From Leucoraja erinacea (taxonomy: Eukaryota), in assembly GCF_028641065.1 (NCBI RefSeq), contig NC_073405.1, forward strand, positions 17,794,001 through 17,858,000: a DNA stretch of 64,000 bases, given 5' to 3'. The notes under the pieces are model-generated. The model was not told the origin of the DNA and ran no database searches. It saw nothing but the letters and a program-made list of their open reading frames with translations. Of the stretch, positions 20 to 61,916 are shown in pieces. Each line of letters starts with the position of its first letter. The stretch's first letter is position 1. The translations under genes and the position numbers were made by a program.

Positions 20-375
20 GGGGGGGGGAAGGGGAGGGGGGGGGAGAAAGAGGGGGAGGGAGGGGAGGAGAGGGAGAGGGAGGGGCGGGAGAGGGGGGGG
101 GGGGAAGGGGAGGGGGGGGGGGAGAGGGAGGGGGGGGGGGGGAAGAGGGAGGGGGGGGGGAGAGGGGGGGGGGGGGGGGGGAAAAAAGAGGGGGGGGGGG
201 GGAAAGAAGGAGGGAGAGGGGGGGGGGGGGGGGGGGGAAGAGGGAGGGGGGGGAAGATTAGAAATTTCCATTGTCAGAGGGGGAGGGGAGGTAGAGAGGG
301 GGGGGGGGGAGAACAGAGGAGGGGGGGGGGGAATGGGGAGGGGAGGAAAGGGGGGGGGGGGGGGGGGTGGGGGGT
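20..375. repeat. G/A-rich low-complexity tract
   Basis: Almost entirely G runs interrupted by A. Confidence 0.9.
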
Positions 376-1635: not shown

Positions 1636-1933
1636 ATTCATAAGGAATAGGAGTAGAATTAGGCCATTCGGCCCATTAAGTCTACTCTGCCATTCAGTCA
1701 TGTCTGATCTATCTCCCTCCTGACCCCATTCACCTGCCTTCTCTCCATAACCTCTGACACCTGTACTAGGTCAAGAATCTCTCTGCCTTGAAAATATCCA
1801 CTGATTTGGCCTCTACAATCTTCTATAGAAATTTCTCCTTTGAGTAGAGTAACCTTTGAGTATGTTTGAGTAACCTTTGAGTCAGCATTCTGTTATCATT
1901 TGACCAAGCTTACTCTTGCATTAATTAGAAGAT

Positions 1934-2086
1934 TGACACAAAATGCTGAAGTAACTCAGTGGGACAGGCAGCATCTGTGGAGAGATAGAATGGGTGACGT
2001 TTTGAGTCGAGACCCTTCTTCAGACTATCTCTCCGACTATCTGACTATCTTTGGCGTAAACCAGCATCTGCTGTTACTTTCTCCAG
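1934..2086 (-). mobile_element. Penelope-like element terminal (pLTR) fragment with decayed hammerhead core
   Basis: gacacaaaatgctg..ctcag..ggcagcatct..gtgacgttttgagtcgagacccttcttcagact is the reverse complement of the end of the Penelope copy at 38510-38640. Confidence 0.75.
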
Positions 2087-13442: not shown

Positions 13443-13912
13443 GAGAGGGAAGGCAAGGGGTTACTTGAAGTTAGAGAAGTCAATATTCATACTGCTGGGG
13501 TGTAAGCTGCCCAAGCAAAATATGTGATGCTGTTCCTCTAATTTGCACTGGGACTCACTCTGACAATGGAGGAGGCCCAGGACAGAAAGGTCAGTGTGAG
13601 AATGAGAGGGGGAGTTAGTGTTTAGCAACACTTTAGCCTTCCCTCTCTCTCCATCCCTCCTCCCTTCCCAGTTGTCCAACTAGTCTGACTGACTTCATTT
13701 ACATTTTGCCTGTTTGCTTTGTTGTTACCTTCTCCTAGCTAACTATGATCTCCATCCCCTTTGTCTCGTTTTCACACCTTACACTTTCTTATCTCTGTAT
13801 CTCACTCTCCCCTGACTCCGTCTGAAGAAGGGTCTGGACTCGAAACATCACAAATTCCTTCTACCCAGAGATACTGCCTGTCTCACTGAGTTACTCCCGA
13901 ATTTTGTGTCCA
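13443..13912. mobile_element. Penelope-like element with inverted arrangement (minus-strand body, plus-strand pLTR)
   Basis: 13443-13630 matches the reverse complement of about 38250-38410; 13638-13912 matches the pLTR, including ctgaagaagggtctggactcgaaac. Confidence 0.8.
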
Positions 13913-15317
13913 ACTGACTCTAAACACTTGACCAGACTATAAGAAAGAAAGCAGTTGAAATGGGAGTGCAAGTGGATACACAAGTACATTGCAACACACT
14001 GAGAGGTGATGCAGTTAACCATTGCCGTTTGATATCTTAATGGAGCTAAATTTGTTGGATATTTAATAATTTGCAGATTTGATGGGCTTACTTTCAGAGT
14101 GGGTTTGGATGTGTTTTGACAAAATGCATATAATCGGAATTTAGAGGATATACTCATATCCAGAAATGAGTTTAATTTTAAAAAATCAAATATTTTGAAA
14201 GGATTTAATAGAATGGGTGCAGGGAGAGGTTTTCATTTTTGTGAACAATGTGAATGTGAACAATGAGGCTATGTGGCCTTTTCCTATATTCAAGACTTAA
14301 TCTACCTATGTAATCTATGCTGTGAACCACAACAAAAATAATAGAAACCTTAATGAGCTGCATTATTGATTAAAAAAAATAAGGAGTGTTCCAACAACCT
14401 AGATGGGTGTATTCAAATTGTTTGTATCAATGAATCAAGTTACAAATTCAAAATATATATTTTTTACTGACTGCACACTGGCATATCAGATGTAAGGAGG
14501 GAAGTCATGGAAACTGCACAGGTCATGAATGTTTATAATGGCCCAATGATGCTGCTACAGAAATCTAAACCCATTTATCACCACTATCTAAACAAGTCAT
14601 TAATCGATGTTTACAGTGATTTTTGGTTTTCTATTTAATTTACACAAGATTGTATTGAAGACTCTTTTCAAAAACAAAGTCCACAGCACAGCACTGCAAT
14701 CAATTAAAATGGTTCTTTAACCTTTTGGGTTTGTTAAAGTATAGTTTTATTTGTTTTCATGGATGAGGAGATATGGAGAATTGTCAAATTGCTAATTAAA
14801 ATGACAAAATAATAGTTCACTTGAATTGTTTATGAACATGGCTGTCAATTGGTCATTGTAAACATCAACAGCTACTGTAGTATCAGGATAATCGTCGGAA
14901 GTTCAGAGGTGGCCGGGATTATTTGCAATGAAACAGCGTTGAAATATGTTTTCTAGTTTTTTAGTTCCTATTTCAATGCGAAAAAGAAACAATTGTTCTA
15001 ATTTCTTCCCTTTCCGCCTCGAACAGGCATATTTCATCAAATTCATGTCAGCATTGGTGTTAATGGTAATAAGTGATTTCCAGGGTTCCCTTGTGCCTGG
15101 CATTGAATGAGTGGCACTGTTTCTTACACAAAGCGTTAACACAATTACATAGATCAGTAATTTCAATTGTGCACTTCTTTTGTTGTGTTAGGTTTTAATC
15201 CTCCATGGATTTGTGCGGGTGAGGTGGAGAAGTACAGAAGGAAGTTAACTTGAAATTAGAATACAATTTATTCGATTAACAACATTTTGTCCGGATTAAT
15301 ATTTAAGAGTATTACAG

Positions 15318-28719: not shown

Positions 28720-30014
28720 TCACTCTCCTATTCTGATAAGACTTAGGTTTGCACAGATGTCGGTAACTATTTTAGCATAGTACTTTGGCCACATACATTT
28801 GATGTGGAATTCGAAGGCACGTAGCTGCAATTAATCAGTATCACCTCACTGATCCTGCATAACTTGATATAAATTTAAAGGAGGGTTGCCTTCTTGAATG
28901 GTTACAGTCCTTCCGGTGAATGTACTCTTACAGTTCTGTGAGCAGGGAGTTCCAGGATTTAGCTCCCATTTTGGTTTTAATAATTCTGGTGATTTATTTG
29001 ATTTGCGTGGATATATTGCGAAGTTTGAAAGTTTTGTACAAGTTGCAGAGAAATTTGCACCCATCTGAGGTTTTCTTTTTGAATTGATCCACAGCAAATA
29101 ATTGCTGATGCTGAAATAAAAACAGAAAAAGATGGCAACACTTTACATGTCAAGCAGCATCTGTGAAGACACAGAGTTAATGTTATCTTTATTTCTGTCT
29201 CCACGATGATGCCTGAGCTGCTGAGTATCTCCAGTGTTTCCTGTGGTTGTTCCTTTTACACAATGCGCTAGAGAAATATGACTTGTCGTGAGCTCGGGTG
29301 AAGGAAGAATGGGAAATACCTGCTGAGGCTGGGAAATACCTTACTAATCGGCAAAATATGCAGTTTATAAAACCAGCGATTGGAGTTTTGTCCAGCTGTG
29401 ACATTTACACCCTACAAAGTTAATTTGAATAAATTCCCAGGAATTAATCTACTGCCTACTCCTCTAACATCTTGTCTAAGCACATTTATTATCTCTCTTT
29501 CTTTATTGGGGAGGGGCGGCTCGTGAATATGTTATTGGGCTTGGTATCTGGAGGCCTGGATTAAGAGTCTCCAGTGAGCCACTGAATTTAAATTCATGTA
29601 ATTAAATAAAACTGAAATATTGTTCACGGTGACCTTGAAGCTAACTGTTCAGTTCTAATTATCTACTTCATTAATCCCCTTTAAAGGCATTTGTTGTACA
29701 AACCCTTCATCACTGCGCACAACAAAGGGCAGAATCTGTCCTTTACTCTCTCCCTCCCCCATTTCCACCGGCTTCTGTTACCTACAACAATACATTCAGT
29801 CATGGGTATGTGCTGCAATAGAGGATTATCCCACAAATTTAGCCAAGCAATGGCCTATTACAGTCTAGTTTCGTTTAGTGTGGAGATACAGCGTGGAAAC
29901 AGGCCCCACAGCCTACTGAATCCGTACCAACATGCAATGCCATTGCATTAACACTATCCTACACACACTGGGGACAATTGACATTTCTTCCAAGCCAATT
30001 AATATACAAACCTA

Positions 30015-33914: not shown

Positions 33915-34120
33915 AGAAACAAGGAACTGCAGATGCTGGTTCATATCAAAAATAGACACAAAGTGCTGGGGTAACTCAGCAAGCAGGCAGCATCGTTGGA
34001 GAAAAAGGATGGGTGATGTTTCAGGCCAGGACCCGTCTTCAGACCCGAAATGTAACCCATCCTTTTATCCAAAGATGCTGCCTGACGTGCTGAGTTACTC
34101 CAGCACTTTGTGTCTATCTT
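33915..34120. mobile_element. Palindromic pair of Penelope pLTR ends
   Basis: gacacaaagtgctggggtaactcagc...ggcagcatc and gatgctgcc...gctgagttactccagcactttgtgtc arms around a hammerhead-core remnant. Confidence 0.8.
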
Positions 34121-35400
34121 TGTGTCTATAAGGTATCAGCCTAGAGAAATTATGGCTCTGTATGCTAAAAGTGGAAGCAACATGCAGCACGACAGCACCA
34201 AGCAATGAGTGCATCTCAGCAATTGAAACATGACAACCGTCTCATAAACCAATAGATCAGAACAGAACAGTTTAATCCTGCCACATCCACATCCACTGGT
34301 TGTGGAAAGCTAAACAAGAAGGCTTTAAGCGATCACCGTTCTGAATGCACAGTTGCAGATACAAGCTGAAGCATTTGAAACTAACATTCGGGTACTATTG
34401 ATCAGAAAATTAATTAGACAAGATGCATAAAGTTGTCAAGAAGAGCTGTTCAGAGGCCGAATGTTTTGTGACAAAAGCCTTTCCAAGATCAACAAAGCAC
34501 AAGATTGTGATGGAATTCCTTTCACTTGCCTGATGAGTGCAGCTCAAATAAAGTTCAAGAAACTCATCGTCCATGTCAAAATAATCTTTTGACTGGCATC
34601 CTATTGATTTCCTTGACTAACAGCACATTGTTAATGTTGTAAATATTATCTAACTGTCACCGAGACTATCCTGTAACACTAGTAACAGCACGAGGGCTAC
34701 ATATCTTAACCACATGAATTGAATTGGCTTCTCTCCATATTCTCAAGGGCAATAAGAGATGGACAATAAACATCTATAGTATTTGAATGAAATTCTGAAA
34801 ATCGCCAGAAATCCAATTGCAGTCAAATGTTGCTGTGACAACACGGGTGTTTCTAGATGACAAATGTTTATTTTACAAGGTATGTTGCGATATATTGGAC
34901 ATGCAGATGCAGTAACTATACAGCCAGACAAAGAACTGAAATAGGTAACAAGTAGGAAGCAGTGCTTTTATCTGGACATCGAGGGGCTGGTACATGAGTA
35001 TCTTCAATTGTGCTGTCCTTTTTCCTGCTCCTGAGATTTTTCTCTTGGATCAGTCTTCAGCACCATTATAGTTGTGCGCTATCTCCATTTGTTTTCACCA
35101 TGACTGTGCTTGGGATTCCTTATTTGATGTCCAAACCCTGGCTGATTTCCAGGTGAATTGTGACTGTCTTAAAATTCTTTTTAGTGTTTTATATGCAGCT
35201 GCATAGAAATTTCCCAACACGTTCTACATTTTATATAATGTATTAGACATAATTAAAATTTACATGATTAATAAAGGCTTTTTATAAGCAATTGGGTATA
35301 TTTTTGTACACTGAAAGACATATTAATGACTAGCATATGCTTTGTATACTTAATCTGTTTGTCTATCTCCTCTTCTCTTCCCAACCTCTCATGTTTACAG

Positions 35401-36925: not shown

Positions 36926-37654
36926 TATTGAGCATAACTTGCCTTTTGCAAATTAGAAGAGTGGAATAAATGTGTTTTATTTCAAAATGTGACTAAAAGA
37001 GGTATGATGAAGTGTCATGAACCTGAAACATCACCTATCCATGTTCTCCAGAGATGTTGCCTGGCCCGCTGAATTACTCCAGCACTTTGTGTCCTTTTTA
37101 TGTAAACCAGCATTTGCAGTTCCTTGGTTCTACAGGGGTAAGCTTGCTCTAACCTGCTCTATCAGTTCAAATACTGGCAGGTACACACAAGTAACCTATA
37201 TCATCCTGTGTGGGTTTTATTTTGTTCTTTTATTCCTTTGTCTTTGAGGAAAATCACTTGCCATCTGTGTAGGGCTTCCAGCCTGACAAAATGACTGGGA
37301 TCCTGCATTCATGTTGGGAATTGTAAGCACTGGCTGCATTCTACCCAGTCTATGGCACTGTGTCTGAGGTCATGCAAATACCGTTAATTAAAAAATGGTT
37401 TATTGTTCTTGACATAATGAGTTTAGCTCCAGCGTCCAAGATTCATGATCTGTCCTCATCTCCCAGTAGCTTAAAGCAGCTCAAATTAAACTTACATTTG
37501 CCATATTATTAATCAAGTAAGATAACTTTGAATTTAAAAATTACTTTCCCCCTGACCAAAAATGAAAATCTTACCATTGTGAAATATGGAAAAGTGTACT
37601 ATAGTGTTGGAATAACCATATAAGCTATGCTAAGTAGAAAAATGCCCTTGTAAA

Positions 37655-38644
37655 TGTCCTCCGTCTACGCCACATCTGCGTCCAGGATGAGGTGTTCCAT
37701 ACTAGGGCATCGGAGATGTCCTCCTTCTTTAGGGAACACGGGTTCCACTCTTCCATTACGGATGAGGCTCTCACCAGGGTCTCCTCTATATCCCGCAGTT
37801 CCGCTCTTACTCCCCCTCCCCCTATTCGTAACAAGGACAGAGTCCCCCTTCTCCTCACCTTCCACCTCATCAGCCGTTGCATACAACATATAATCCTCCG
37901 ACATTTTTGCCACCTCCAACTGGATCCCACTACTGGCAACATCTTCCCATCTCCTCCCCTTTCTGCTTTCCGCAGAGACCGTTTCCACCCTGGTCAATTC
38001 GTCCCTTCCCACCCAAACCACCCCCTCCCCGGGTACTTTCCCCTGCTTTACCTCCCCCCTCGACTCCATCTAAGGACCAAATCAGTCTTTCCAGGTGAGG
38101 CAGAGGTTCACCAACACCTCCTCCAACCTCATCTACTGCATCCGCTATTCCAGGTGTCAACTTCTCTACATCGGCGAGACCAAGCGCAGGCTCGGCGATC
38201 GCTTCGCTGAAATCCTCCGCTCAGTCCGTCTTAACTAACCTGATCGACCGGTTGCTCAGCACTTCAACTCTCCCTCCCATTCCCACTCTTACCTTTCTGT
38301 CCTGGGCCTCCTCCATTGCCAGAGTGAGGCCCAGAGCAAATAGGAGGAACAGCACCTCATATTTTGCTTGAGTAGTTTACATTGACTTCTCTAATTTCAG
38401 ATAGCCCCTGCTTTCTCCCACCTTCCCCTCCCCCCTCCCCCTTTCCAGTTCTCCCACATCCTACTGTCCCTGCCTACCTCCTTTCTTTTTCCCGCCCTCC
38501 CCCGATATCAGTCTGAAGAAGGGTCTTGACCCGAAACTTTGCCAATTCCTTCTCTCCATAGATGCTGCCTTACCCGCTGAATTTCTCCAGCATTTTTTTG
38601 TCTACCTTCGATTTTTCCAGCATCTGCAGTTCTTTCTTAAACAC
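37655..38644 (+). mobile_element. Penelope-like retroelement, 5'-truncated (RT C-terminal region, GIY-YIG endonuclease, pLTR)
   Basis: RQRFTNTSSNLIYCIRYSRCQLLYIGETKRRLGDRFAE (GIY-YIG) at about 38090-38235; NKDRVPLLLTFH linker; terminal pLTR. Confidence 0.92.
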
Positions 38645-41600
38645 TTGCATAAACTAGGCCTCTTTTATCACTGAAACACTAACCTTCACCACCTTCATAT
38701 GATGCATAAATTTAAAGAAGCTAATCAGTCAGAATGTACAGCAGCTGGCTATTGAATGGCAGCGGTTGATCATTACATTACTCCTGCCTATTTAATGTTT
38801 GGGTTTTTGTGATGCTAGTTAATAAAAGTTAGAGATCCAAAGAATGTGGAAGCCTCCCTGGGGAATAAAAGTGAAAAGAGGAATATTTATAATATTTTCA
38901 CCAATTATATTTTCGCCTGTGATTTTGCTCATCGGGGCATCTGGCAGTAAAATGCACACGCTGAAATAGACATGCGCTGACATTTTTGTAGCTAGGTTTA
39001 TGTATATTTACCATTTACCATGCAAGTATTGGGATTTCATGCTCCTTACTACATTATATTTATAGAAACCAAACAGCAAATCATTGATTTTGCACAATTT
39101 CTGGAGGAATAGTACATCCTGGACAGCACCACCTTGATTATCATGTTTAACCGTACAAACCTAAATTGATGACTTTTTACACAAAATACTGATACAAAGT
39201 CTCCAATGGATTTTGGTTAATGTACTGGTCACGAGAGGCCCAAAGAAACATTACGAAAGATTGAAAGAATGACTGGAGTACCTAAGGTTATTCAAAACAT
39301 TGTTTTTAATTTTAATATAATTGAAGAAAGATCATATCATTGTTAAAATCAAATCAAAACTTCAGGTTGAGGAAATCTGGGATAAAATCAGAAAATGGTG
39401 GAGATACTCAGCAGGTCAGGCAACATCTATAACGAGAAACAAAGTTAACATTGCAGATGAAGACCTTTATCATAACAAATGTTGGCCTGATATAACTAGG
39501 TTATAAATTAAACTGGAGACATAAGGAACTGATTTAACAATAAGAAACACACAGTGCCGGAGTAACTCGGAGAGAGTCAGGCAGCATCACTGGAGAACAT
39601 GGATAGGCAACGCTCAGGCACAATCAGTCTGAAGACTGTCCCGACCTAGAAACGTTGCCTCTCCTTGTTTTCCAGGGATGCTGCCTGAATTGCAGAATTA
39701 TTCCAGCACACTTAAAAAATATATATAATTACAGTTGAAAAACCACCATCATTGTCCCAAACAGTTCCTGCATCTGCACATCTGTGCAGCCTGCTCTCAA
39801 ATGCCACCTTGAAAGAAACTGCTTGCTTCCTCCATTCCAGTATCCCAAAATGGCAAACAAATCTTGTGATTATCATATCTTTTGATAGCAGGATTAAGAT
39901 AAAGCCTCCAATGAGCAGGGCCAAGAACAGGTTGTGCCCGTCATACTGTCCACCATGCTATGGCACCAAACATGTCTTAGACCACAGGGTAGAGGACTAG
40001 AACTGTTTTTCACAATAAATAAACTGTTATTTTGTGAGAACTTCGCATCCCATTCCTCATGAGTGAAGGGATGCAGATTGCTGTTAATTGAAGACATGGA
40101 CTGGACGCAGTAGACCGCTGGGGTCATCGACTTTAAGAAAAATTCAAGAGGTGAAGGATAGGAATTAATGTGAAACGTGGACTGGTTACACATTTCTTAT
40201 CAGGTTATTTTTGTATTGTAAATTTGTAATACAGTGTAATTGTCCTGTGTGATTCAGTTGTAGGGTTGAAGGGCATCATATATGTATTGCCTGTTGATTT
40301 AAATTATAAGTGCTGTATCTGGGGGGAAAAAAAAGACCGTGAGCAGTTGTAGATGCCTTTTCATTTAACCTCACTGCTCAAATTGCCATTTTACCTTTCT
40401 ATTATATCATTCTTTTTTTTCTCCTCAAGAGCTATTGAATGACACTGTCACAATATCCATATAATTAAAAGTTCTCTGTCTGTCACACGTCTGAAGTGCA
40501 CGGATAAACTGTCTATCAAGCTTCAAGGTGCCTATTACCTGATTGGCTCAAATAACTGTATCTGCTAAATTAACTGAGCTGATTTATTCAACTAAAAATC
40601 TGTCAGTCCTGAACCAAGATCTGAGCAACACTGAAATCATTTGATATTTTTTCAAAGAACGTTTGGAGCTCGCAGTTATTACAAAATAAATAGATATGGC
40701 GATATTTTTCCAGCTACCTTCTTGCATGAATTTTCTTCTTTGAGCTGTTCAAGATATTTGTAGTTACAATAATAATAATTAAAAAAATCACTGCCTTGCC
40801 CACAAAGATAATTAATATTAGAAATCTCAGTTGTTCTATGTGTATCCAAGAAATCTGAATCAATATTTGCAATGCATTTTGTTACTAGTCACTTGACATT
40901 GGTTCAGTAAGTGTACATTCTCTCAGTGATCGACAAACTTCAATGAGAACAGGGGGAGAGGAGGGCATGTGGCAGTTTGAGCCATCTCTGAAAAACAACA
41001 GGATCATTGAGGACATTCCATCCAGTGTCCATTTTCCTGCACTATCCCCATATCTCTTGATTCCCATAATATTCAGAAATCTATTGCTCTCTGTTTTGAT
41101 TGTTGACTGAACCTCCCCAGCCCTTCAGAGTAGAAAATTCCAAGGAAGACATTTTTCCTCATCTCTGTCGAAAATGATTTAACTATGACTCCTGGTTTTA
41201 CATTTCTCAGGCAAGATAAATATCCTCCCTGCATCTGCCCTGTCGAGCCACGTAAGAAATGTGAAGTTTCAGGGAAATTACCTCTGATTCTTTTAAATTC
41301 CTAGAGAAAACAGTCTGAACTTGGCTTCTCCTCTAGTGACAAGACTTGCCACCTCAGTAGTCCGTGCGGAGAATCTTTTGCATTAGCTCTATTGGAGATA
41401 TTTTTTGGTAGAAATACCTAAATTGTATATAATACTTAGGTACAGTCTCAACAGGGCCTGTGTAATGTTAATAAGACATCTTTACTCCTGATAGAGGACA
41501 ATATACCATCCTTTGCTTGCTTCTCCTTTTGAAAAACAATATTACCCGATTTGTCACCATGTAAAAATCTATGGTTTTCAGTTTTATGCACTGAAGATAA

Positions 41601-43864: not shown

Positions 43865-45924
43865 TAATTTAAATTGGTTTCTTGTAAAATTGAGTTCACG
43901 ACAAAGCAGTTAATGTGCTTTAATGTTTCTATCAATTGAATGTAATCTTGAAGCCTATGAATTTTATTGGCAATGATTGAGATGTAATTGGATGGAGCAG
44001 ACCAAAATAGTAACTCAGACTTTACCGTCAGCAAATGTTGCTCACTCTCATCCTCAATGATTCAGTGGGTTCTTTGACATGAACTCCTCTTTCCTAAAAC
44101 AAATATCATCAGTGTAAGGGCACAATCAGAAAAAATCTGACTAAATAGACTGGAAAGTACAATGCTCTAACCTTTGTGAATTTGAAAAAAATATTAAATA
44201 GATGAGAATGAAAAATATGATATGCATGTTGATTAAGAAAAAATGCAATGTCATGAACAAACTTGAATGATTTAAAAATCTCTGGAATTTTGAAATAATT
44301 ATTTTTGAAGAATTTAACAGTCTTCATGTAACGTTAGTTTTTGGGGGCAGCGAGGATGTATATTTCACATGTTTTAGATCATACCATCAGAATTTGGAAC
44401 TCGTAAATGTTCAGAAATGGTGCAAAGAACACAAATGTATCGTACAGATCCCAATGCTTTGAGCCATGGTTAAAATTGAGCACAAACTCATAGAATTAAT
44501 ACATGTCTCTTTTTTTTAATCAAGTTGCTAGGTACCAAGTGTAATGACTAAATTTACAAAGCCAAACATAATTAAGACTTGCCATAGCAGTTAGAACTCA
44601 TTTATACATAACATTTCCAATACTCTTAAAACAGCAAATCATACAAAAGCTGTTGAAGTGTTAAATGAGATCCATTATGGATCCTTCTTCAGACTGATGG
44701 ACTTGACAATATTTTAGTGCTGAATCAAGAGTCTTGATAAAAATTGAGGTCAACAGCGGAAGAGAATCAGTGGGCAAAACAGAAAGTGATTGGGTGACTC
44801 AGCGGGTCAGGCAACATCTGTGGAATGGATAGGCGACTGAAGTCTGAAGAATGGTGCTGACCCTAAATGTCACTTATCCCTTCCCTCCGCAGATGGAAGT
44901 ATACTGCCAGTATGCTGAGTTATTCCAACACGTGTTTTGCTCAGGATTCCATCATCTGCTGTTCCCTAAATCTCCAAGAGAACCAGTATGTGTGGTCATA
45001 CCTTGCACAAAGGGTGTTGATGTTGGAGGGCAGTCATTTCAGCTCCAGGTCATTGTGACAGGAGTTTCTCAAGGCAGTGTCCGAGACCCAACCAACATCA
45101 TGAACTTCCATCATTGTTTCAGAAGTGTGCTTGCTTGCTGATAATTACACTATCATTAATTCTTTTGATACCTTCTCAGAAATTGATGTCATCTTACATG
45201 CAGACCTAGAAGCATTTAAGCATTAAATCTTTTGCGAAGTACCAGATAATGATCATCTGTCAAGCCTCTTGTCATAATGTGGATCGCCTTGATCAGAAAT
45301 TTAATTTTCTAACACCCTAAAGCTTTTACCATGTCTGCCATCTACAAAATGAGCTGCAGTAACATTGCCTTGGCTTTTCAGGTAGTATGTGAAATTTCAT
45401 GAAGGCAAAGATAACATGAGCAAGGCAACATGAACACTTAAAGGATTCCCTCTTTGACTCACACCACCCTGACTGGGAAATACATTGGCCTTTCATCATA
45501 TTAGAACTTAATCTCAAGACTTTGCACTGATCTGCTGTGGGAGTTTCAGAAGAAATGCACTAGTTCAGGAGAGTTTACTATTACATTCCCAAGGATATTT
45601 AGGCATAGGAAATAGATGCTGCCTTTATCAGCAATGTCTAACTTCTGTAAAAATCATTTAAAATAACAAACACTTAATGGTGCAAGTTTACACAAATAAT
45701 TGGAGACACAAGGAAATGTACATACTGGAATCATGAGCAAACAGTTCTGAAGAAGGGTCCCAATCCAAAATGTCGCCTGTCCGTTCCCTCCACAGATGCT
45801 GCCTTATCTGCTGAGTTCATTCAGCACTTTATGCTTTACACTAATAATTCGTCCTTCATCAAATTCAAATGGAAACTGCTGAGTGGTGCATCTCGTAGCT
45901 TCATCTGTGGCGAAGAAATTTATT

Positions 45925-46949
45925 TGAACTTGAGCAGATAGGATGTGTCTATACACTTCAGAATTCATTATGCTACTATCATCAGCAGTTGTATCATCAA
46001 TGACGATAAGTGAGCAGCCATACATTCCCAGGCCATAACACCCCCACCACCGTGTTTCACACATGAGGTAGTATGCTTTGGATCTTGGGCAGTTCCTTCT
46101 TTCCTCCATACTTTGCTCTTGCCATCACTCTGATATGCGAATCTTCGTTTAATCTGTCTAGACCTTTTTTCTAACTCTTTTAAGTACTTCTTGGCAAACT
46201 GTAACCTGGCCATCCTTTTTTTGCGGTTAACCAGTGGTTTGCATCTTGCAGTGTAACCTCTGTATTTCCGTTCATGAAGTCTTCTGTAGACAGTGGTCAT
46301 TGACAAATCCACATCTGACTCCTGAAGAGTGTTTCTGATCTGTTGGACAGGTGTTTAGGGATTTTTCTTTATTATAGAGAGAATTTTTCTGTCATCAGCT
46401 GTGGAGGTCTTCCTTGGCCTGTCAGTCCCTTTGCAATTAGTAAGTGCACCAGTGCTTTCTTTCTTCTTAATGATGTTCCAAACAGTTGATTTTGGTACGC
46501 CTAATGTTTGGCTGATGTCTCTAACAGTTTTATTCTTGTTTCTCAGTCTCATATGGCTTCTTTGACTTTAATTGGCACAACTTTGATCCTCATGTTGATA
46601 AACAGCAATAAAAGTTTCCAAAGGTGATGGAAAGACTGGAGGAAAGATTTGGTGCTGAGAGCTTTCGTATACCGGCATTAAGGAGGCAATTAAACACATG
46701 TGAGAAATTACAAACGCCTGTGAAGCCATGAGTCCCAAACATGGTGCCCTGAAAAGGGGGGACTATGTACAAAGCCAGCTGTAATTTCTACCTGGTGAAA
46801 CCAAAATGCATAAAAATGGCCTTTAATAAAACCTGACAATGTGCACTTTAACCAAATGTATTTTTTTCTATTACAAATCTCAAATTGTGGAGTACAGAGG
46901 CAAATAAATCAGTGATGAGTCTTTGTCACACGCATTATGGTGGGCACTA
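45925..46949 (-). mobile_element. Tc1-like transposon, truncated and frameshifted
   Basis: HTH RDISQTLGVPKSTVWNIIKK, RPRKTS, TTVYRRLHE..ARCKPL, QSDGKSKVWR, VKHGGGGVMAW; terminal repeat ends at 46949; 3' half of the DDE domain missing. Confidence 0.93.
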
Positions 46950-47204: not shown

Positions 47205-47626
47205 CAAATGGCAAACCACTGAAATCATATTCTCGTTCTTCAAAATCCAAAAATGAAAAGAGAAAGAAAAGGGTGGAACCAGACACAACAGCAGCTACCT
47301 CAAGTGATGGCACCGAAGCCAGAGCAGAATCATCCCGTGCAGATTCACCCACTGCATTGGCAACTATGCTGTCAGAGAGTTTTGCTGCTGATGCAGAATT
47401 TATGCCCAGAAGTCAACCCACCATGATGTACGTACTCCCAAAATCAAAAAAGGTGATCTTTGACAAGATGCACATGTCCTGCCAGCAGGCCTTCGAGCGG
47501 TTCGCCACCAGGAACAAAGTGGCATCGTGGAAGGAATCAGAGACCAGCAATGAGGGAGCAGCAATGGAGGAGGAAGCAAGTGACCATGAAAGTGTTGACG
47601 CCACTTTTGAAACTACTGATGTACAG
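47205..47626 (+). CDS. KDM4B: KDM4B coding exon (linker with MMYVLPK...MSCQQAFERFA motif)
   Basis: ttttctgtgaacag acceptor, phase 1, open frame, donor CAG|gtacac, phase 0. Matches KDM4B [36 protein letters not shown]. Confidence 0.92.
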
Positions 47627-47715: not shown

Positions 47716-48212
47716 TACGAAAATGCTGGAGAAACTCAGCGGGTGAGGCAGCATCTATGGAGCGAAGGAACAGGTGACGTTTCGGGTCGAGACCCTTCTT
47801 CAGAGGTGGGGGGCGGGAAAAAGAAAGGAAGAGGCGGAGACAGTAGGCTGTGGGAGAGCTGGAAAGCGGAGGGGAAGGAGGGAGAAAGCAAGGACTACCT
47901 GAAATTGGAGAAGTCAGTGTTCACACCGCTGGGGTGTAAACTGCCGAAGCGAAATATGAGGTGCTACTCCTCCAATTTGCGGTGGGACTCACTCTGGCCA
48001 TGGAGGAGGCCCAGGACAGAAAGGTTGGATTCGGGGAGGGGGAAGGGGGAGTTGAAGTGCTGGGCCACCGGGAGATCAGGTTAGTGCGAACCGAGCGGAG
48101 GTGTTGGGCAAAGCGATCACCAAACCTACGCTTAGTCTCACCGATGTAGAGCAGCTGACATCTAGAGCAGCAGATGCAACAGATGAGGTTGGAGGAGGTG
48201 CAGGTGAACCTC
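47716..48212 (-). mobile_element. Penelope-like element 3' portion with intact hammerhead core
   Basis: Reverse complement of about 38105-38600 (GIY-YIG region plus pLTR); inserted about 90 bp after a KDM4B exon. Confidence 0.9.
47772..47805 (-). ncRNA. Minimal type I hammerhead ribozyme motif
   Basis: CUGAAGA-A-GGGUC(UC)GACCC-GAAA-C-GUC-accu: conserved core boxes, stem II and GUC triplet. Confidence 0.65.
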
Positions 48213-49138
48213 TGGATAATAACACATGTGCTAAGTTTTCAGCCATATTGCCCGCTTTTTCTTTATCCGAAGCATATTGTCCTTCCATATCAATCTGTAC
48301 CTCATTTAAGAAGAACACAGTTAACTTTGAAAATCTCTGCTCATTGCATTTTTGGATGAACTACGCCAGATGCGTTTCTGTAAAACTCATAATCCCATTT
48401 CATTTTCATCTTTTAAAGTGGTGAATGTGGAAGAACTGCATGGTGTCCAGGGATGCAAAGTCATATTCTGAAGGCTGCATTGGCTCTGAATTTTAAGTTG
48501 TCTTTATATAGTCCTAATAGTTGAAAATATTACACAGGCCAGCAGGGTGGCTGTATTTTTCAATCAAGACTGCTAACACACATACGTTTATAACTATTTG
48601 TAATCTTAAACTTTTTTTCATTACATTTGTATTAGAATATAATGGGATAAATATTTCTGAGATGAATACAGCTTTTGGTAAATGCAAGAACGTTTGTAGG
48701 TATAAGGAACTGTAGATGCTGGAATCATGAATAAAACACAGTATTGGAATAATTTGGCGGGTCAGGCAGCATCCCTGGGGAACATGGATAGGTAATGTTT
48801 TAACCCATCTTCAAACCATTGTTTTTCAATGAAGGAATAATTCAAATTAAAAATGATCAAATTAAAATTGATCAAAAAGTGTCATTTATATATAAGAAAC
48901 ATGTTACTTATAAGTATGTTATCAAAGTTAAAGGATAGATAATAAACAAGCTAATTGCAAAGCAAAAACAGCAGATGCTGGAAATCTGTACCACTCTGAA
49001 ATGTTTCCAGCATTTTCCCTTTATATTTATGACTCTTCTAAAAGAATTGCTTTTCAACACGTGTTTTAGTCACTGTAGTATTAGGCAAATCCAAATCTGT
49101 GGATTATTTCTTGATTCCTAATCTCTTGACTATTTCAG

Positions 49139-49259
49139 TTGCCTCCAGTTTATCCAAAATTGAAGAAAGAGATCACTAAGAGTCGACGCCATCCATTCAG
49201 TAAACCACCAGCTAGATCGCCGTTATCAGTTGTCAAACTTGAACCAAGCAGTGATGAAG
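49139..49259 (+). CDS. KDM4B: KDM4B coding exon ([40 protein letters not shown]); absent from the ORF track
   Basis: tatttcag acceptor, G|gtgagt donor, 121 nt, phase 0 to 1. Matches KDM4[36 protein letters not shown]. Confidence 0.95.
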
Positions 49260-50769
49260 GTGAGTGAACTTGTTTTTAACCAAAAAAATGGAAAGCACAG
49301 TATTTGTTGAATATAGAATGCTCAAGACTTTGTCAAACTCTTTGTGCACCCATAACAAAAATGTCTCGGAATAGTTCTAATCTCAACCATACCCCATTCT
49401 TACCAATTTACTCATCGAGCAATGTTCAATCCTATAATTCTTATCTATGCTTTATTATTATTCCGTCTGTGTAATCTCCTCCATTCCGGTAACCTTCAAG
49501 ATTGGTTGTGCTTCTCAAATTCAGGCCTCCTGATCTCTTGCAAACCATTGGGTCAAGATTTAGGGTCACTTTCTCTCAAGTGCAAAGTTGCAAGAAAAGT
49601 GCAAGTTGGAGAAGTAACAGAGATACTTTGTGGAAAATCATGAGTTTGGATTACCGGTGAATGGAGAATTTATATATAGTGTGAAGACTAGAGCTGATTG
49701 AATGGTAAAGAACAATGGAGACTGGATTATTGGTAAAGATTTTAACACCAAGGAAATGAAGGAGTATTGTGACTGAGGAAGTAAGGTATTGGAATTGAGT
49801 CAGCATGTGAAGGGAAATCATTTATAGTTTGCCTTCGAAGCAGTAAGAAAATCAGTTGAAGGATGAGGGAACACAATATTAAGATGTAAATGCGAGTTTA
49901 AGGAAGAAAGTAAATTTGCAGTTTGGCTATATAAAAGAGGTAGTGCAGGGTTCCACGCTTGAAAGCAATACGTACTGGAATTCAAACAAATTAGACCAAA
50001 GTATGGTTGCGAAAATAAACATTTGGTACATTAGATCAACTTGCTTTTCTCAAAGTGTTGTCGACGTAGAAGAACTTGAGCTATCAAACTCGTGTGCTAT
50101 CAGTCTGTGTGCCTCCGCCAAAGTTGAACATCCCGAGTCTCAAATACTGATATTGATATTTTCATTGGTTCAATGAAATAGTTGAACCAAGGTTTAATAA
50201 TTTTAACCATCACTTTGCAAGAGAACTGAGATTGTAAAATTTGAGGATTGCATCTGAAGGAAGCTGATGAACATGGAGTTGAATAAGTTCGTAAAAATAA
50301 GTTTGGAGGAAATATTATATGCTATTTAATCATTCTGAAGGTCATATTGAAAACATTCTTGCATATTATTCTGGCAGATCAATATTATCCTTAATATATT
50401 TTGATCAAGCAATGCACAAACTAGTGACGTTCTCATTATTGTTATTGGTTTCATAGTTTGTGCTGTAATGTAATTGGAAATTATGATATGCACATCAGTT
50501 TATGGATTTGAAATATATTCCAGGCACTCCCTGACTTGCGTAATATGCAATTTATGTAAACTCACACTTGCATAAACTATGCAGAATAGGTGATGCCGTT
50601 TCCGGAAAGACCTTTGTTATTGCAACGGGAGAATGTAACCCTTGCTGCATAAATCGTGGAATGTCTGTAATTGCATAATTCTAGATAAATCATTTAAAAC
50701 TTTTTAAAACCATTGAAAAGATTATCGTGTATTCCCAGAGCATTTCTCAAAGAAAGTTCCTGCGAGTGT

Positions 50770-51030
50770 CATTGTGATAATGGCAAATAATATGTTTCTG
50801 AAGTGTTGAGTAAAGATAAATCTTTGCCGGGCTGCTGAGGAAACTCCCTGCTCTGTGAAATAGACCCATGGGAGCTTTTGAATGGAGCCTCACTTGAATA
50901 GAATTTCCAAAAAGGAGCATATCTGATAGTCCAGCACTGCCTTAGTACTAAACTGCATTGTTAGCCAATTTTTATTGTGCTTAAATTCTGCTGTGTTGCT
51001 TGAACCCACAATCTTCTGACTAGGGTCAGT
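50770..51030 (-). mobile_element. Deu-domain SINE (SacSINE1-like) with tRNA-derived head
   Basis: B-box-like agtcagaagattgtgggttcaag on the minus strand, plus aactccctgctct..catggga and cagcactgccttagtact core blocks. Confidence 0.65.
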
Positions 51031-51269
51031 ACCATCAGATATTTTTAAAGAGGAGATAGATAGATTCTTGATTAGTACAGGTGTCATGGGTTTTGGGGAG
51101 AAGGCAAGAGAATGGTGTTAGGAGGGAGAGATAGATCAGCCATGATTGAATGACGGTGTTGACTTAATGGGCTGAATGGTCTGGTTCTGTTCCCTATCAC
51201 CTTTGACCTTATGATCAAGTGCGGCATTATACTGGACATGAGAGGTTGAACCATCGAACCACAGAGGGA

Positions 51270-51560
51270 GGGCAGCACAGTAACACAGCTGGTGGAACTG
51301 CTGCCTTACAGCTTCAATCCTGACCTTGGGTGCTATTTGTGTGGTGTTTGCACATTCTCCCTGTGACCGTGTGGGTTTCCTCTGGGTGCTCTTATTCACT
51401 CCCACATCCCAAAGACGTGTGTGTTTGCAGGTTAATTAGCTGCAGTAAAATTGTCCCTCGCGTGCAGGGAGTGGATGAGAAAGTGGGATAACATAGTGTG
51501 ATCATGTGATCGATGATTGACGTGCTCAGTGGGCCGAAGGGCCTGTTTAGATGCTATATT
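51270..51560 (+). mobile_element. HE1-type V-SINE
   Basis: tRNA-like head, ttgcacattctccctgtgaccgtgtgggtttcctctgggtgctc V-core, gggccgaagggcctgttt tail. A further partial copy lies at about 53550-53665. Confidence 0.8.
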
Positions 51561-52450
51561 GTAAAGAAAACTGAGTGAATATTAAAAAAAATAATCAGAA
51601 CAATTTTACTTAATGGTATCATTAGATGTGCTTGAGGGATAATTTTTCTTTGAGCTGCTTAATAAACCATGGTTACCACCGAAGTGACTTGTATGATGTT
51701 AGAAATATAAAGGTGTGGAAGGAGAACAATTAACTGGTGACCCTGACATGTGAGAAAGCCTCTGGATTGTGCATTTATTACAATTTTATACCATGAAGGA
51801 AGCGGGCCATATCTTAGATACAAAATGTGAAACATGGCTAACAGATTTTGGAAGAATTCAAATAAGCTGATTAATTTCCTGATGTGTAATGATATTACTA
51901 ATATATATTGTGCAATTTTATTTTGTATCGCTGCATGTTTTAAGTTGTGGACGTCACAGTTGAATTTTACAGCAATTAAAGGAAGCGTGTTAACTCAAAA
52001 TAAAAGATCTGCAGATGATCAGAGCGTGACTACTAACTTTAAACATCATGCAACTTGTGAATTTGCTGGCATATGATGGAAATGTCAGCTCTGTGGTTTT
52101 TATCATTTGTAATTTAGCCAATGCAGTGGGGAGGCTTTTCATTACAAACATTTTTCCCTTTCAACCAATAAGTTAGTAACCTTTTGCGTTTAAAGCATGG
52201 CAATTGCCATGTTAAAGTTGACCTTTTGAAGAATTGAATAGTTGTAGCATTGTAGGCGTGAGCTTGAAGAGGCTAGAATGAAGTAGATTGCCTGCTGTCA
52301 TTCACAAGTTGATCTCTATCCATTTTATTTAGTCAGCTTTTCAAAGGTCACTCCTGTACGTTAGATTTCAAGTATAACATTTTACAGTTTGTCTTCCATT
52401 CTTTTACCCTCTTCAAAAATAAATTGTTGACTTTACTCTCTTATCTCTAA

Positions 52451-52749
52451 AGGGCCTATCCCACTGTACGAGGTAATTCAAGAGCTCTCCCGAGTTTAAA
52501 AAAAAAAATCAAACTTGTGGTAAGTACGTAGCGGGCAATTTGGAGCTCGGGATGTCTCTTAGCGGCTCATAACGCTAACGGCAGGTACTCGGGGAAACGC
52601 GATAAGCTTGTGAAGATTTTTCACCATGTTGAAAAATGTCCGCAAGAGCCCCGAGTACCTACGAGCGGCTACTACCGTAATTCTCCGAGTTCGAATCAGG
52701 GGAAACTCGGGAGAACTCTTGAATTACCTCGTACAGTGGGACAGGCCCT
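52451..52749. mobile_element. PIF/Harbinger-type MITE, copy 2
   Basis: About 45-bp imperfect TIRs AGGGCCTaTCCCACTGTACGAGGTAATTCAAGAG; TAA/TTA flanks; colinear with 28412-28719. Confidence 0.88.
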
Positions 52750-52901
52750 TTACTCGTTTATTAAGTAATTTCTGCTTACCTATTATGCATTGTAATGTTT
52801 TGCCAATGAAGAAAGAACTGCAGATACCGGAAAAATCGAAGGTAGACATAAATGCTGGAGAAACTCAGCGGGTGAGGCAGCATCTATGGAGCGAAGGAAA
52901 T

Positions 52902-52935
52902 AGGTGACGTTTCGGGTCGAGACCCTTCTTCAGAC
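52902..52935 (-). ncRNA. Minimal type I hammerhead ribozyme motif in a solo Penelope pLTR end (about 52810-52936)
   Basis: guCUGAAGAaGGGUCucGACCCGAAAcGUCaccu, same core as 47772-47805. Confidence 0.65.
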
Positions 52936-53390: not shown

Positions 53391-55489
53391 TGCCTGGTTT
53401 GTTGACTGGCTTTTTTTTCAAGAAGATTTGATTGAATGAATTAAACCTGTGTGCATTGCTTGAGGTAGATCTAAATCTTAACTATCTTGGCAAAATGCTT
53501 TTGTGCAACATGCAGCTCTATTTTCACACCCATTTGTTCACTTGATTCATGGGTGACATAGTGGAGCAGTGGTAGAATTGTTGCTTTCCAGCACCAGAGA
53601 ATCGGGTACGATCCTGATTACAGTTGCTGTGTGTACGAGGTTTGTACGTTCTCCCTGTGATCGCGAAAGTAGAGTGATAACTGAAAAATGACAAGCCATC
53701 AGTTCTGCAAATTAGTTTCAAAGTCTGCTGAGCAATCCAATGAACCCCATTCTTTTACCGAGACACCATTCTTTAGTGCTGACCAGTGAAAGGGATAATA
53801 TGAAACCTAAATAAATCACAAAACAACTAAGGCAAGTAGCATGCAACTGGATAAATCTTACCATCTGACTTTGAGTAGATATATTCTGGTATATATTCCA
53901 ACACCTAACTTATACAGGTTTTCTAGCCATTTGAAGGTGTTTTATAGAATGAACAGTAGGAAAAGTTTAATTTGAATTTAATGTGTTCTGTTGTGACTGC
54001 TGTCCTCCTAATGCAATCATGTTCAGTTCAGTTTGCTTCAGTTACTTGTCAGATAATGAAGCCGTCCTTCCAGCTCCCTTGTGGTGTTTGTCAGTAATCT
54101 TGATGGATTTTTGTACATGAACCAAAGAGATGATATTTGCCTTTAGGGAGCGATGGGTTCATTAAAGCAGGAATGTCGAGTGAATATCCCTAGCTGGGAT
54201 CCTGTATGCAATTTCATGCTCTTTGTTGGGGTTTATTTGTTCTATTAAAGAAAACAAATTACTCACCAAAAGCTGCCTGTTTGCTTTTTCCTCTTAAATT
54301 CTTACAAAGCTATTGAAATGTCAATGGATATGCAGCACATTTAGAGGTTTAACCCTCTACATCACACATTTCCTACATTCTGAACACTGGAGTAAAGTAC
54401 GGCATTTTGATCAGCTTTAGGAACGTGCCTGCTGGTTTTTTTTGCCACTGACAAATCCTGACCAGCTTGACCCTTGAAGGAGGGTCCCAACCATAAATGT
54501 TGTCTGTTCATTTCTCTCCACAGATGCTGCCTGTCCCACTGAGTTCCTTCAATACTTGTTTTTTGCTCCTGGAGGTGCTCCAAGGTCCAGGGTCATCCAC
54601 ACTAACCACTTACAAATAGGCCAAAGCACCTTATTAAAAGCAAAATAGAAATGAAACCTAATATATTTCGCGGTCAAAATCATTTGATTAACTTTGTGTT
54701 TCTGTTAAAGAAAGTCTGGGGTTGACTTACCACACCAGATGCAGGCAAGCATTTGTCAAGGAGCTCTGTGGGCAATCAAAGCAATTAAGGTTGGTTTGGC
54801 GACAGATTGTCAGCGTTGTTGTCATTTTCCCCATGGTTTTGGTTTTGAAAGACAGTTATTGATTCAAGGATCATGACTTCCAATTACCTGCCTTCAAAGT
54901 CACTTTGAGCAGGTCAACAGGGGCTGTCATTCCAAGCTTCTCAGGGTGGTTGAAACACATATGTGTAAGCCGCTTACCACTGTGTGAGAAAGGGCTTCAC
55001 GTCAATAGACTTTCTCATCTGGCAGATCATCCAAGAACAGCCAGAAAAATAACTATTTAGGGATGGCAATTGGCATCACTTTCATCATTAAAAACCCAAA
55101 ATAATACAGGTTCATCTAATACTCTGGGTTTTTTAGCTGCGATGGCATTATGCATTTTATTGCATTTAACCTTTTTCATACCATGCTTAAAGTGAAAATC
55201 TCAAACTATTTCACACTGCATAATATACAAACTGCAGAGAGTGACTTTAACGTTACTATTTAATTTCAGGCCCCAATGATCTAAATTACAGCAATGGAAT
55301 TGTATAAAGCTTACATTTAGCCATGTAACCTAGCTCCCTGTTGTATACTTATCTATTTCAATAATATCTGTGTAGATTGATGCTTCTCTTCTCTCTCGCC
55401 CCCTCTACTTCTCACCATCTTGCCCCATCCCTCTCGCCTACTTCAATGCCCCCTTTCATGGCTCTGGTGCATTTACCTCGCAAATGTCA

Positions 55490-60845: not shown

Positions 60846-61916
60846 TTTCACTAATCACTGTTCAATGAATTAATTACCAGGCATTGAAACAGCTTCATTC
60901 TTTGTTCCCTTACTCACACATCTTCTGAATGGCCCACTGTATACTTTCTCTTTTAGAGTGCCCCCAATCTCCTTGTGTTTCAGCATAGAAGGCATTCTTA
61001 GAGTAATCCTATACCCCCCAAAGTCCTGCAAAGTATTAGCTCTCCAGTTCTTGTACAATTCCCCTCTGAATGTACTGATTGATTGTATCGTTACAGGCAG
61101 TGAGTTTCTATCCTCTGAAATTCTCTATCCAAGTCCCACTTTTCTGTCACAGTTCAGTCCTTCTCAATGAACTTTGAGTGCAAGCTGTTGTGAGAAGCTA
61201 AATGTTTAATTGCTAATCTTTTGTTTAATTCACAGAAGCTCCAGGATCTGACTGCTCACCTGCAATAAATAATATGTAGCGAAGATATAATTAAAAAATC
61301 TGAGAGAAAAATTTAAATTATTGAAATTTAAGTTACTCAGTGAATTGTAATTGGATTGCTGTCCAGCAGAACTGGAAGTTCAGTAGATAGACACAAAAAA
61401 TCTGGAGTAAAATCTGGGTCAGACAGCCCCTCTATAGAAAAATAAAGGGTGGCGTTTTGGGTCGAGATCCTTCTTCAGATCAGTAGTATCAGTTCAGTAG
61501 TTTCTTGTTAAAGAATTGATTATTTATTTGAAGCATTTGATCAGTATCCACGCCTTTTCTTTTTTTTTAAAAGACGAGAAATGTTGGGTAGCCCAAACAG
61601 ATCTGTAATCATACACGTGTAGCGATTTTCCATATAATGCAAGCAGTGGGCAGAGGCAATGTTTCACGTGATCTAGAAACCATAGGTTTTTGTTCAAACT
61701 GTACTGTTTTTATTTGTTCCATCTACATGGAGTCTGTGGATTTGCCATTTGGTGGCTGCAGAGAATAGTAATGCCATATTATTAAGTTTAAGCACAGCAA
61801 CCAAAAATATTACCTTCATTTGCTGAAAAGTAGCCAATATCATTTTTGGACTGGATACTGGCAATCATGTACATAAAGTGGTACGATTAGTATTGATTTG
61901 CAATTATCCCCCATAG

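What the first reader, a model, noticed from the sequence alone, without database searches (positions are those of the whole stretch)
47772..52935. Minimal hammerhead ribozymes in Penelope-like ends scattered through the KDM4B introns
Seen: the most frequent short repeat in the window is the terminus of the GIY-YIG element at 37655-38644. Two copies (47772-47805 and 52902-52935, minus strand) read CUGAAGA-A-GGGUCucGACCC-GAAA-C-GUC, i.e. both hammerhead core boxes, stem II and a GUC triplet. Stem III is reduced to the loopless palindrome ACGU. Established: Penelope-like elements carry minimal type I hammerheads that can cleave as dimers. Inference: this is such a ribozyme, spread here as more than 10 intact or decayed copies in 64 kb, mostly without the coding body.
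Basis: partly seen in the sequence, partly recalled or inferred. Interest (0 to 1): 0.7.

Follow-up and report, generated by a model that had tools for sequence, protein, structure and literature searches.

The report
Penelope retrotransposon stubs carrying minimal hammerheads
These short repeats are the end pieces of a known kind of jumping gene (Penelope-like) that carry the sequence of a miniature self-cutting RNA, but they were likely copied from the uncut front of the element's RNA and likely sit in this gene's introns as passive leftovers.

Summary
The motif is real at both coordinates: CUGAAGA-A, a 4-bp stem II, GAAA-CG-UC. It lies in the pseudo-LTR of a Neptune-type Penelope-like element (RT, zinc-finger linker, GIY-YIG). 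The exact 28-mer has 15,042 genomic copies; remnants number about a million. The loopless ACGU stem III is the published minimal-hammerhead pattern, not a new variant.

Both cited copies are antisense to the KDM4-family host gene, and the first keeps GIY-YIG sequence. Across copies the core decays like its neighbours.

Copy ends give the mechanism. 3' ends fall at two sites about 37 nt apart. 5' ends pile up at the hammerhead's first bases (108 of 265 young copies), not at the cut site. The stubs were therefore likely copied from uncut RNA that starts at the hammerhead. Cleavage is untested and predicted to be weak without protein. This scan reached the same reading before, in this genome and others.

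The parts
47772..47805 (-). Minimal hammerhead motif, copy 1: C3 at 47803, predicted cut between 47776 and 47775; stem I only 1 bp because the base at -2 differs from the family
47720..48238 (-). 5'-truncated Penelope-like copy (GIY-YIG remnant, 3' UTR, hammerhead, ends at about +84); starts 94 bp after a host splice donor, antisense to the host gene
52809..52935 (-). Solo stub, copy 2: runs from -2 to about +125; C3 at 52933, predicted cut between 52906 and 52905; stem I 2 bp; antisense to the host gene
37655..38644 (+). 5'-truncated, frameshifted Penelope-like copy: RT thumb region, GIY-YIG (38074-38235, Pfam PF01541 E 0.022, below cut-off), 3' UTR, hammerhead at 38513-38540 with the ACGU palindrome lost, long tail end
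13816..13916 (+). Copy with core boxes intact, palindrome lost, with 3' UTR upstream
33918..34139 (.). Head-to-head inverted pair; the minus arm (C3 at 34042) gains a 4-bp stem I from the inversion junction but has lost the palindrome
1916..2085 (.). Inverted pair of stubs; further pairs near 9181-9345, 16560-16726, 29092-29262, 39529-39709, 44776-44967 and 62201-62373
37002..37128 (+). Decayed solo stub starting at the hammerhead's 5' edge; similar decayed stubs at 45746-45839 (+), 48703-48817 (-), 54475-54561 (+), 61379-61480 (-)
47205..47626 (+). Host exon (AG before, GT after) of the KDM4-family gene that fixes the intron context and strand
   Evidence: (contig over 47209-47626 with 0 differences); gene family

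Best explanation
The repeats are pseudo-LTR stubs of Neptune-type Penelope-like retrotransposons whose pseudo-LTR carries a minimal type I hammerhead sequence, and most were likely made when the element's reverse transcriptase copied an uncut RNA from an internal start back to that RNA's 5' end, which likely lies at the hammerhead's first bases. Shown: the module follows the GIY-YIG ORF and 3' UTR and precedes the next ORF's ATG by 164 nt in partial tandems; 3' ends fall at about +93 or +130; 5' ends pile up at -7 to +3; many stubs carry their own target-site duplication; inverted pairs mostly join one long-ended and one short-ended arm. Inferred: transcription starts at the A of TCAGT (initiator-like, with a TATA-like box 30-32 nt upstream in 3 of 6 subfamilies), so stem I can be only 2-3 nt; RT primes at nicked target DNA, runs off the RNA end and then integrates, jumps to another RNA, or re-copies the first bases. 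The hammerhead is predicted to cut only as a dimer and with protein help, if at all. The intronic copies are inferred to be neutral passengers.
For: Architecture: partial tandems; CxxxxCxxC linker; ATG at +164; RVT_1 in a 1,052-aa frame; inverted pseudo-LTR upstream. 3' ends: 127 of 265 young copies at +84..104 and 104 at +118..140, matching the 30-40 bp tail and two internal RT starts of Anolis PAc (PMC11167929). 5' ends: 108 of 265 at -7..+3, 0.078 stops per nt against 0.005-0.015 elsewhere and 0.011 at the cut site; the same in one young subfamily with a known upstream sequence (25 of 65) and in non-inverted copies (0.071). Target-site-like repeats of 7 nt or more in 30 of 73 stubs against 3 of 73 controls. 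Tandem restarts at -6..+1 in L208, L210, L222, L235, L241. Re-copied first bases at the junction: GG before GU-CUGA in 36 of 100 listed matches (about 8 expected), 5 of 10 such loci viewed being re-copies of the stem II 5' strand. Inverted pairs: 39 of 46 classifiable pairs are long+short (p 2e-6; 62 pairs in all). In PAc, hammerhead mutants did not affect insertion and uncut RNA was the main substrate. Folding: stem II probability 0.001-0.06, stem I 0, ACGU dimer helix -1.7 kcal/mol.
Against: No RNA 5' end was observed: neither read lay showed a place where many molecules begin or end, and the reads come mostly from passively transcribed copies. The 5' pile-up is spread over about 10 nt with its mode at -2/-1 rather than at the initiator A, and an extra G before AGU is only weakly enriched (36 of 100 vs about 27 expected). 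Three of six subfamilies, including the youngest, lack a TATA-like box in their consensus. The upstream pyrimidine tract plus CAG also reads as a splice acceptor. A weak excess of apparent starts at the cut site exists (310 vs 93 and 55 at +26 and +30; 16 of 100), so some cleavage is not excluded.
Confidence: 0.75

Rival explanations
1. The 5' pile-up marks an RT stall or a splice junction, not the transcription start: RT stops after passing a protein-bound hammerhead, or an intron ends at CAG|U as in Drosophila virilis Penelope, where splicing supplies a different stem I.
For: Pyrimidine tract plus invariant CAG just upstream in all six subfamilies; in D. virilis the intron end maps to the 5' end of helix I (PMC4209133); the modal start is -2/-1.
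Against: No shared upstream exon among 73 non-inverted stubs: bases at -7 to -20 are at background; no splice-like joint at this place among the listed joints; re-copied first bases and template jumps at this point fit a physical template end.
Confidence: 0.13
2. The stubs are an independent non-autonomous family (retrozyme-like) that spreads through hammerhead cleavage, circular RNA and rolling-circle copying.
For: About 10^6 remnants with their own target-site duplications; some tandem arrays carry 2-3 intact cores 200-330 nt apart (L208, L210, L222, L239, L255); animal retrozymes derive from pseudo-LTRs (bioRxiv 2026.07.22.740005).
Against: Tandem units restart at -6..+1, +21, +31, +42 and further upstream, not at the cut site; 0 of 65 intact copies in the unselected sample have an intact partner within 400 nt; stubs carry the diagnostic bases of the autonomous subfamilies; most units of the C1 array lack the core.
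Confidence: 0.06
3. The motif is a vestige: catalysis has lapsed and the bases are kept because they double as the internal promoter (initiator at TCAGT; ACGT where a downstream promoter element lies in Penelope) or as a protein-binding site.
For: The unconstrained hammerhead position N7 and the whole 17-nt run from TCAGT are invariant across six subfamily consensuses; the youngest copies (98-100% identical) carry GUU at the cleavage triplet, a poor triplet by recalled hammerhead rules; ACGT lies 27-30 nt from the proposed start, like the RGACGTGY element of D. virilis Penelope (PMC2377424); Naiads spread without hammerheads (PMC8557442).
Against: All catalytic bases, the extra base after A9, G10.1-C11.1 and the palindrome are kept in the consensuses of five subfamilies, apart from CpG decay; stem II and the first stem I pair change only to G-U; the equally minimal PAc hammerhead cleaves when its protein is present. 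This rival is compatible with the best explanation and concerns catalysis only.
Confidence: 0.3
4. The intronic copies act on the host, cutting or destabilising KDM4 pre-mRNA.
For: 31 hits in the window, one 94 bp from a splice donor.
Against: Both best copies are antisense to the host; the two sense copies with intact cores have lost the palindrome; density (31 per 64 kb) equals the genome average (643 per 1.35 Mb); orientation is unbiased (17 vs 14); no copy-level selection on the core.
Confidence: 0.03

Closest known systems
Minimal type I hammerheads (min-HHR) in pseudo-LTRs of metazoan Penelope-like elements: Xena, Poseidon, Neptune (Cervera and de la Pena 2014, PMC4209133; parts 1-2 of 4 read, supplement file 2 passages, file 1 not searchable)
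   Same: CUGANGA plus one extra base, G10.1-C11.1, gaaannuh box with no stem III loop and palindromic 15.2-16.2, position in the pseudo-LTR, mostly dispersed single copies; monomers inactive and dimers weak in that paper.
   Different: Stem I is 2 bp, below the descriptor's minimum of 3 (only their D. virilis variant has 2 bp); stem II is 4 bp rather than the longer helix they describe; about 130,000 core-intact copies by extrapolation (81 per 1.35 Mb) against 4,000 and 9,000 reported for coelacanth and Xenopus under the stricter descriptor.
Anolis Poseidon element PAc (Frangieh et al. 2024, PMC11167929; parts 1-2 of 4 read, supplement search without hits)
   Same: Two internal RT start sites defining a 30-40 bp tail; hammerhead in the pseudo-LTR; uncut RNA as main template; no RNA-seq ends at the cut site.
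   Different: In PAc the ORF starts inside stem II; here the ATG is 164 nt downstream of C3. This element has the zinc-finger linker of the Neptune type. PAc cleavage was assayed; this one was not.
Neptune-type EN+ Penelope-like elements (Craig et al. 2021, PMC8557442; Arkhipova et al. 2013, PMC3846280; passages read)
   Same: RT, CX2-5CxxC linker, C-terminal GIY-YIG; partial tandems; inverted 5'-truncated copy; optional tail; target-site duplications; an initiator-like TCACT was noted in a rotifer pseudo-LTR.
   Different: The sharp 5' pile-up at the hammerhead edge and the long+short pairing of inverted arms were not found in the passages read; no tree was built to place the clade.
Non-LTR retrozymes (bioRxiv 2026.07.22.740005; part 1 of 5 and passages read)
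   Same: Pseudo-LTR-derived, hammerhead-bearing, non-coding; reported from one chondrichthyan.
   Different: Retrozymes are tandem arrays with a hammerhead in each unit; here copies are nearly all single or inverted, and the arrays seen have irregular junctions away from the cut site.

Membership tests
Minimal type I hammerhead (Cervera descriptor) | CUGANGA box plus optional extra base | tested here: met
   descriptor text
Minimal type I hammerhead (Cervera descriptor) | Stem II of 3-7 bp with 3-10 nt loop and G10.1-C11.1 | tested here: met
   4 bp + 4-nt loop in both copies; loop varies and U-A becomes U-G in one subfamily
Minimal type I hammerhead (Cervera descriptor) | gaaannuh box with palindromic 15.2-16.2 | tested here: met
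   GAAA-CG-UC in both cited copies; lost in the other three core-intact window copies
Minimal type I hammerhead (Cervera descriptor) | Stem I of at least 3 bp | tested here: not met
   1 and 2 bp in the cited copies; 3 bp or more in 5 of 81 sampled copies and 1 of 61 in 5'-complete loci. It resembles the 2-bp D. virilis variant
Minimal type I hammerhead (Cervera descriptor) | Covariation in the helices | tested here: inconclusive
   Only one-sided G-U changes (stem II pair 4, stem I pair 1) among six subfamily consensuses; no two-sided change
Minimal type I hammerhead (Cervera descriptor) | Self-cleavage 3' of NUH as a dimer | not testable with these tools
   Indirect tests only: weak, artefact-laden excess of 5' ends at +28; no read-end pile-up
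EN+ Penelope-like element, Neptune type | Single ORF with RT and C-terminal GIY-YIG | tested here: met
   RVT_1 E 2e-7 in a 1,052-aa frame; intact IYC..C..C..YIGET stretch in L197; PF01541 E 0.022, below cut-off, in the window copy
EN+ Penelope-like element, Neptune type | CX2-5CxxC linker between RT and EN | tested here: met
   CNRKRCNTC in L197; definition
EN+ Penelope-like element, Neptune type | Pseudo-LTR partial tandems, inverted 5' copy, 30-40 bp tail | tested here: met
EN+ Penelope-like element, Neptune type | Phylogenetic placement of the RT in Neptune | not tested
   No reference RT set was at hand; placement rests on the linker motif
Non-LTR retrozyme | Tandem repeats with a complete hammerhead in consecutive units | tested here: not met
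   0 of 65 intact copies in the unselected sample have an intact neighbour within 400 nt; 5 selected loci do, with irregular junctions
Non-LTR retrozyme | Circular RNA from cleavage and ligation | not testable with these tools
   No +27/+28 circle joint among the listed joints; lists were cut to the best supported

The most novel reading that the evidence does not exclude
The million stubs are a fossil record of Penelope 'strong-stop' cDNA: transcription starts at the hammerhead itself, so the ribozyme is the capped first 31 nt of the mRNA with a 2-bp stem I; a dimeric RT-endonuclease primes on both target strands at two internal sites, runs off the RNA end, and there re-aligns on a 3-nt microhomology to re-copy the first bases in a telomerase-like way or jumps to another RNA to rebuild the pseudo-LTR. 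Any cleavage would then be a protein-gated decapping switch rather than a way to release unit-length RNA.
Probability: 0.45. Interest if true: 0.6.

Novelty: new member of a known kind. Interest (0 to 1): 0.3.

Why it matters
As a ribozyme find it is ordinary: minimal hammerheads in Penelope pseudo-LTRs, dispersed by the thousand in fish, coelacanth and frogs, are published. Its value is as a very large natural data set on two open questions, how Penelope elements rebuild their ends and what their hammerhead does. The copy ends agree in vivo with the in vitro PAc result (two internal RT starts, uncut template) and predict a testable transcription start at the hammerhead's first bases. They also show that descriptor searches demanding a 3-bp stem I miss roughly 10^5 motifs in this genome.

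Tried and rejected
Rfam scan of the window: no hammerhead family among 42 hits at E<=5. Copy-level selection on the core: none; G12 decays at the CpG rate, 0.725 vs 0.746-0.748 at other CpG sites. Cleavage footprint: 310 pattern matches starting at +28 against 93 at +26 and 55 at +30 (about 1,100, 520 and 280 after my correction for flank odds). Of 12 such loci viewed, 5 were inversion arms (two of them one junction), 5 were mutated or deleted copies that keep upstream core sequence, 1 a local duplication and 1 a clean start. A hand tally of the first 100 of 1,989 matches gave 23 at +24/25, 7 at +26, 2 at +27, 16 at +28 (9 explained by microhomology), 5 at +29, 9 at +30, 11 at +31, 15 at +32 and 12 at +33 or later. 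Verdict: inconclusive, at most small. Spliced 5' exon supplying stem I: no shared upstream sequence. A permuted hammerhead cutting at UC|AGU: rejected on sequence, stem III cannot pair. Cap-derived extra G: weak (36 of 100 vs about 27). Expression: no RNA holder listed by the run search; reads laid cover both strands and cannot be assigned to one copy. Short recalled KDM4 peptide motifs found no exon in the window; domain searches placed JmjC and Tudor outside it. Lunse et al. 2017 (dimer cleavage) is not held; I saw only its title and review passages. Paper searches for a description of this family or of the 5' pile-up found none; the library is incomplete and repeat databases were not available.
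Full report
Observation. Both cited stretches read CUGAAGA-A-GGGU-CUCG-ACCC-GAAA-CG-UC on the minus strand, with C3 at 47803 and 52933. Positions below are relative to C3; the predicted cut is between +27 and +28. The family is the window's largest repeat cluster (21 regions vs 5), with 31 profile hits, 5 of them with intact core boxes and stem II. The exact 28-mer occurs 15,042 times in the 2.19-Gb genome, reversed control 0. In 135 evenly spaced 10-kb stretches there were 643 hits, control 0, which extrapolates to about a million remnants; 81 met a core + stem II + gaaannuh test against 0-2 in shuffles, about 130,000 genome-wide. The host looks like a skate- or ray-type cartilaginous fish; that label is recalled, not tested.

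Parent element. The module is the 3' end of the GIY-YIG copy at 37655-38644. A relative has a 1,052-aa frame with RVT_1 and an inverted pseudo-LTR upstream. Partial tandems run GIY-YIG, stop, 3' UTR, hammerhead, tail, 5' UTR, ATG at +164, and the RT-EN linker carries CNRKRCNTC, the zinc-finger motif that marks Neptune and Nematis (PMC8557442 passages). At least six subfamilies with unlike 3' UTRs share the sequence from TCAGT onward.

Hammerhead anatomy. The published descriptor (PMC4209133 supplement) asks for stem I of 3-7 bp, cuganga plus an optional base, stem II of 3-7 bp and gaaannuh. The loopless ACGU is therefore the standard minimal form. All parts are met except stem I: 2 bp in 46 of 81 copies, 0-1 bp in 30, 3-4 bp in 5; 1 bp and 2 bp in the two cited copies. 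Among subfamilies the loop varies (CUCG, UUCG, CCCR), one stem II pair and one stem I pair change to G-U, and there is no two-sided change. Folding puts stem II at 0.001-0.06 probability because the purine-rich core pairs with the downstream pyrimidine tract; the dimer helix is worth -1.7 kcal/mol. Across copies the core is no better kept than its neighbours (0.929 vs 0.914), as expected for dead copies.

Copy ends. Of 265 young copies (88% identity or more, 50 nt or more; 572 aligned in all), 127 end at +84..104 and 104 at +118..140. This is the Penelope tail, which in Anolis PAc lies between two internal RT start sites (PMC11167929). Of 62 unique inverted pairs, 46 could be classed and 39 join a long-ended with a short-ended arm, which fits priming on both target strands at the two sites (inferred). 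5' ends concentrate at -7..+3: 108 of 265, 0.078 stops per nt against 0.005-0.015 in other intervals and 0.011 at +26..30. The peak holds within one subfamily whose upstream sequence is modelled (25 of 65) and without inverted copies. Thirty of 73 such stubs have flanking repeats of 7 nt or more, against 3 of 73 controls, so they are separate insertions. Tandem units restart at the same place, and junctions often carry re-copied first bases, such as GAAGGGU before CUGAAGA. These features fit a physical RNA end. TCAGTCT matches the initiator consensus (recalled), and a TATA-like box lies 30-32 nt upstream in 3 of the 6 main subfamilies (a lead taken from earlier scan notes). No RNA start was observed directly.

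Cleavage. Stubs that begin at -3..0 contain the whole motif, so their templates were uncut. A direct count found more apparent starts at +28 (310) than at +26 (93) or +30 (55), but only 1 of 12 viewed was a clean start, and an unbiased list gave 16 of 100 at +28, 9 of them explained by microhomology (hand tally). A small in vivo footprint is neither shown nor excluded. In the literature, metazoan minimal hammerheads were inactive as monomers and weak as dimers; the PAc hammerhead cut only with protein and was not needed for insertion.

Host gene. JmjC exons lie upstream and double Tudor exons downstream, all on +, so the window is inside a KDM4-family gene. An exon at about 47205-47626 is confirmed by a contig with no differences. 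Both cited copies are antisense to the pre-mRNA. The two sense copies with intact cores have lost the palindrome. Density matches the genome average and orientation is unbiased (17 vs 14). Nothing points to a host role.

Comparison and verdict. It works like the pseudo-LTR hammerheads of fish Neptune and Poseidon elements and is a member of the EN+ Penelope class. It fails the published minimal-hammerhead descriptor on stem I length, so I call it a minimal-hammerhead motif of the 2-bp stem I type with untested activity. It is not a retrozyme array. Six paper searches found no description of this family or of the 5' pile-up; one paper on dimer cleavage and one supplement file could not be read and may bear on stem I and stem III lengths. 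Earlier notes of this scan give the same reading for this genome (119 notes fit the look-up) and for other shark-type genomes; they are not independent evidence. Novelty: new member of a known kind; interest 0.3.

Noticed in passing
L216-L228 (G000:C1:24.092-24.095 Mb): A 13-unit tandem array of about 177-210 nt made of pseudo-LTR, 5' UTR and ORF start; units restart at +31, +21, -3 or -1 and only three carry the core.
   Followed up: partly
Genome-wide: About a third of 6,101 exact copies starting at -2 have GG just upstream, often from re-copying the stem II 5' strand; this incidentally gives them a 4-bp stem I that meets the published descriptor.
   Followed up: partly
window 47773, loose ends: Single-cell reads carry an adapter-like sequence here on the strand antisense to the element; it looks like template-switch strand invasion at an ATGGG match (adapter identity recalled), not a cleavage end.
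   Followed up: no
window 6882-7090: A purine/pyrimidine fold-back of about 200 bp that draws many sub-threshold miRNA hits in Rfam; low complexity.
   Followed up: no
window 45804-46354 (-): Frames resembling a Tc1/mariner transposase remnant (family name recalled).
   Followed up: no
window 17159-20041 (+): Several broken frames resembling a LINE reverse transcriptase (family not tested).
   Followed up: no
window 25963-26913: GC-rich tandem repeat with long open frames on both strands.
   Followed up: no
window 39385-39468 (-) and 29092-29262: Older, more diverged relatives of the module with a different stem II region and a GUU-AAC junction; they may belong to an earlier family.
   Followed up: no
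L061:1972-3200: The Penelope ORF has a long proline-rich, repetitive stretch between its N-terminus and the RT domain.
   Followed up: no
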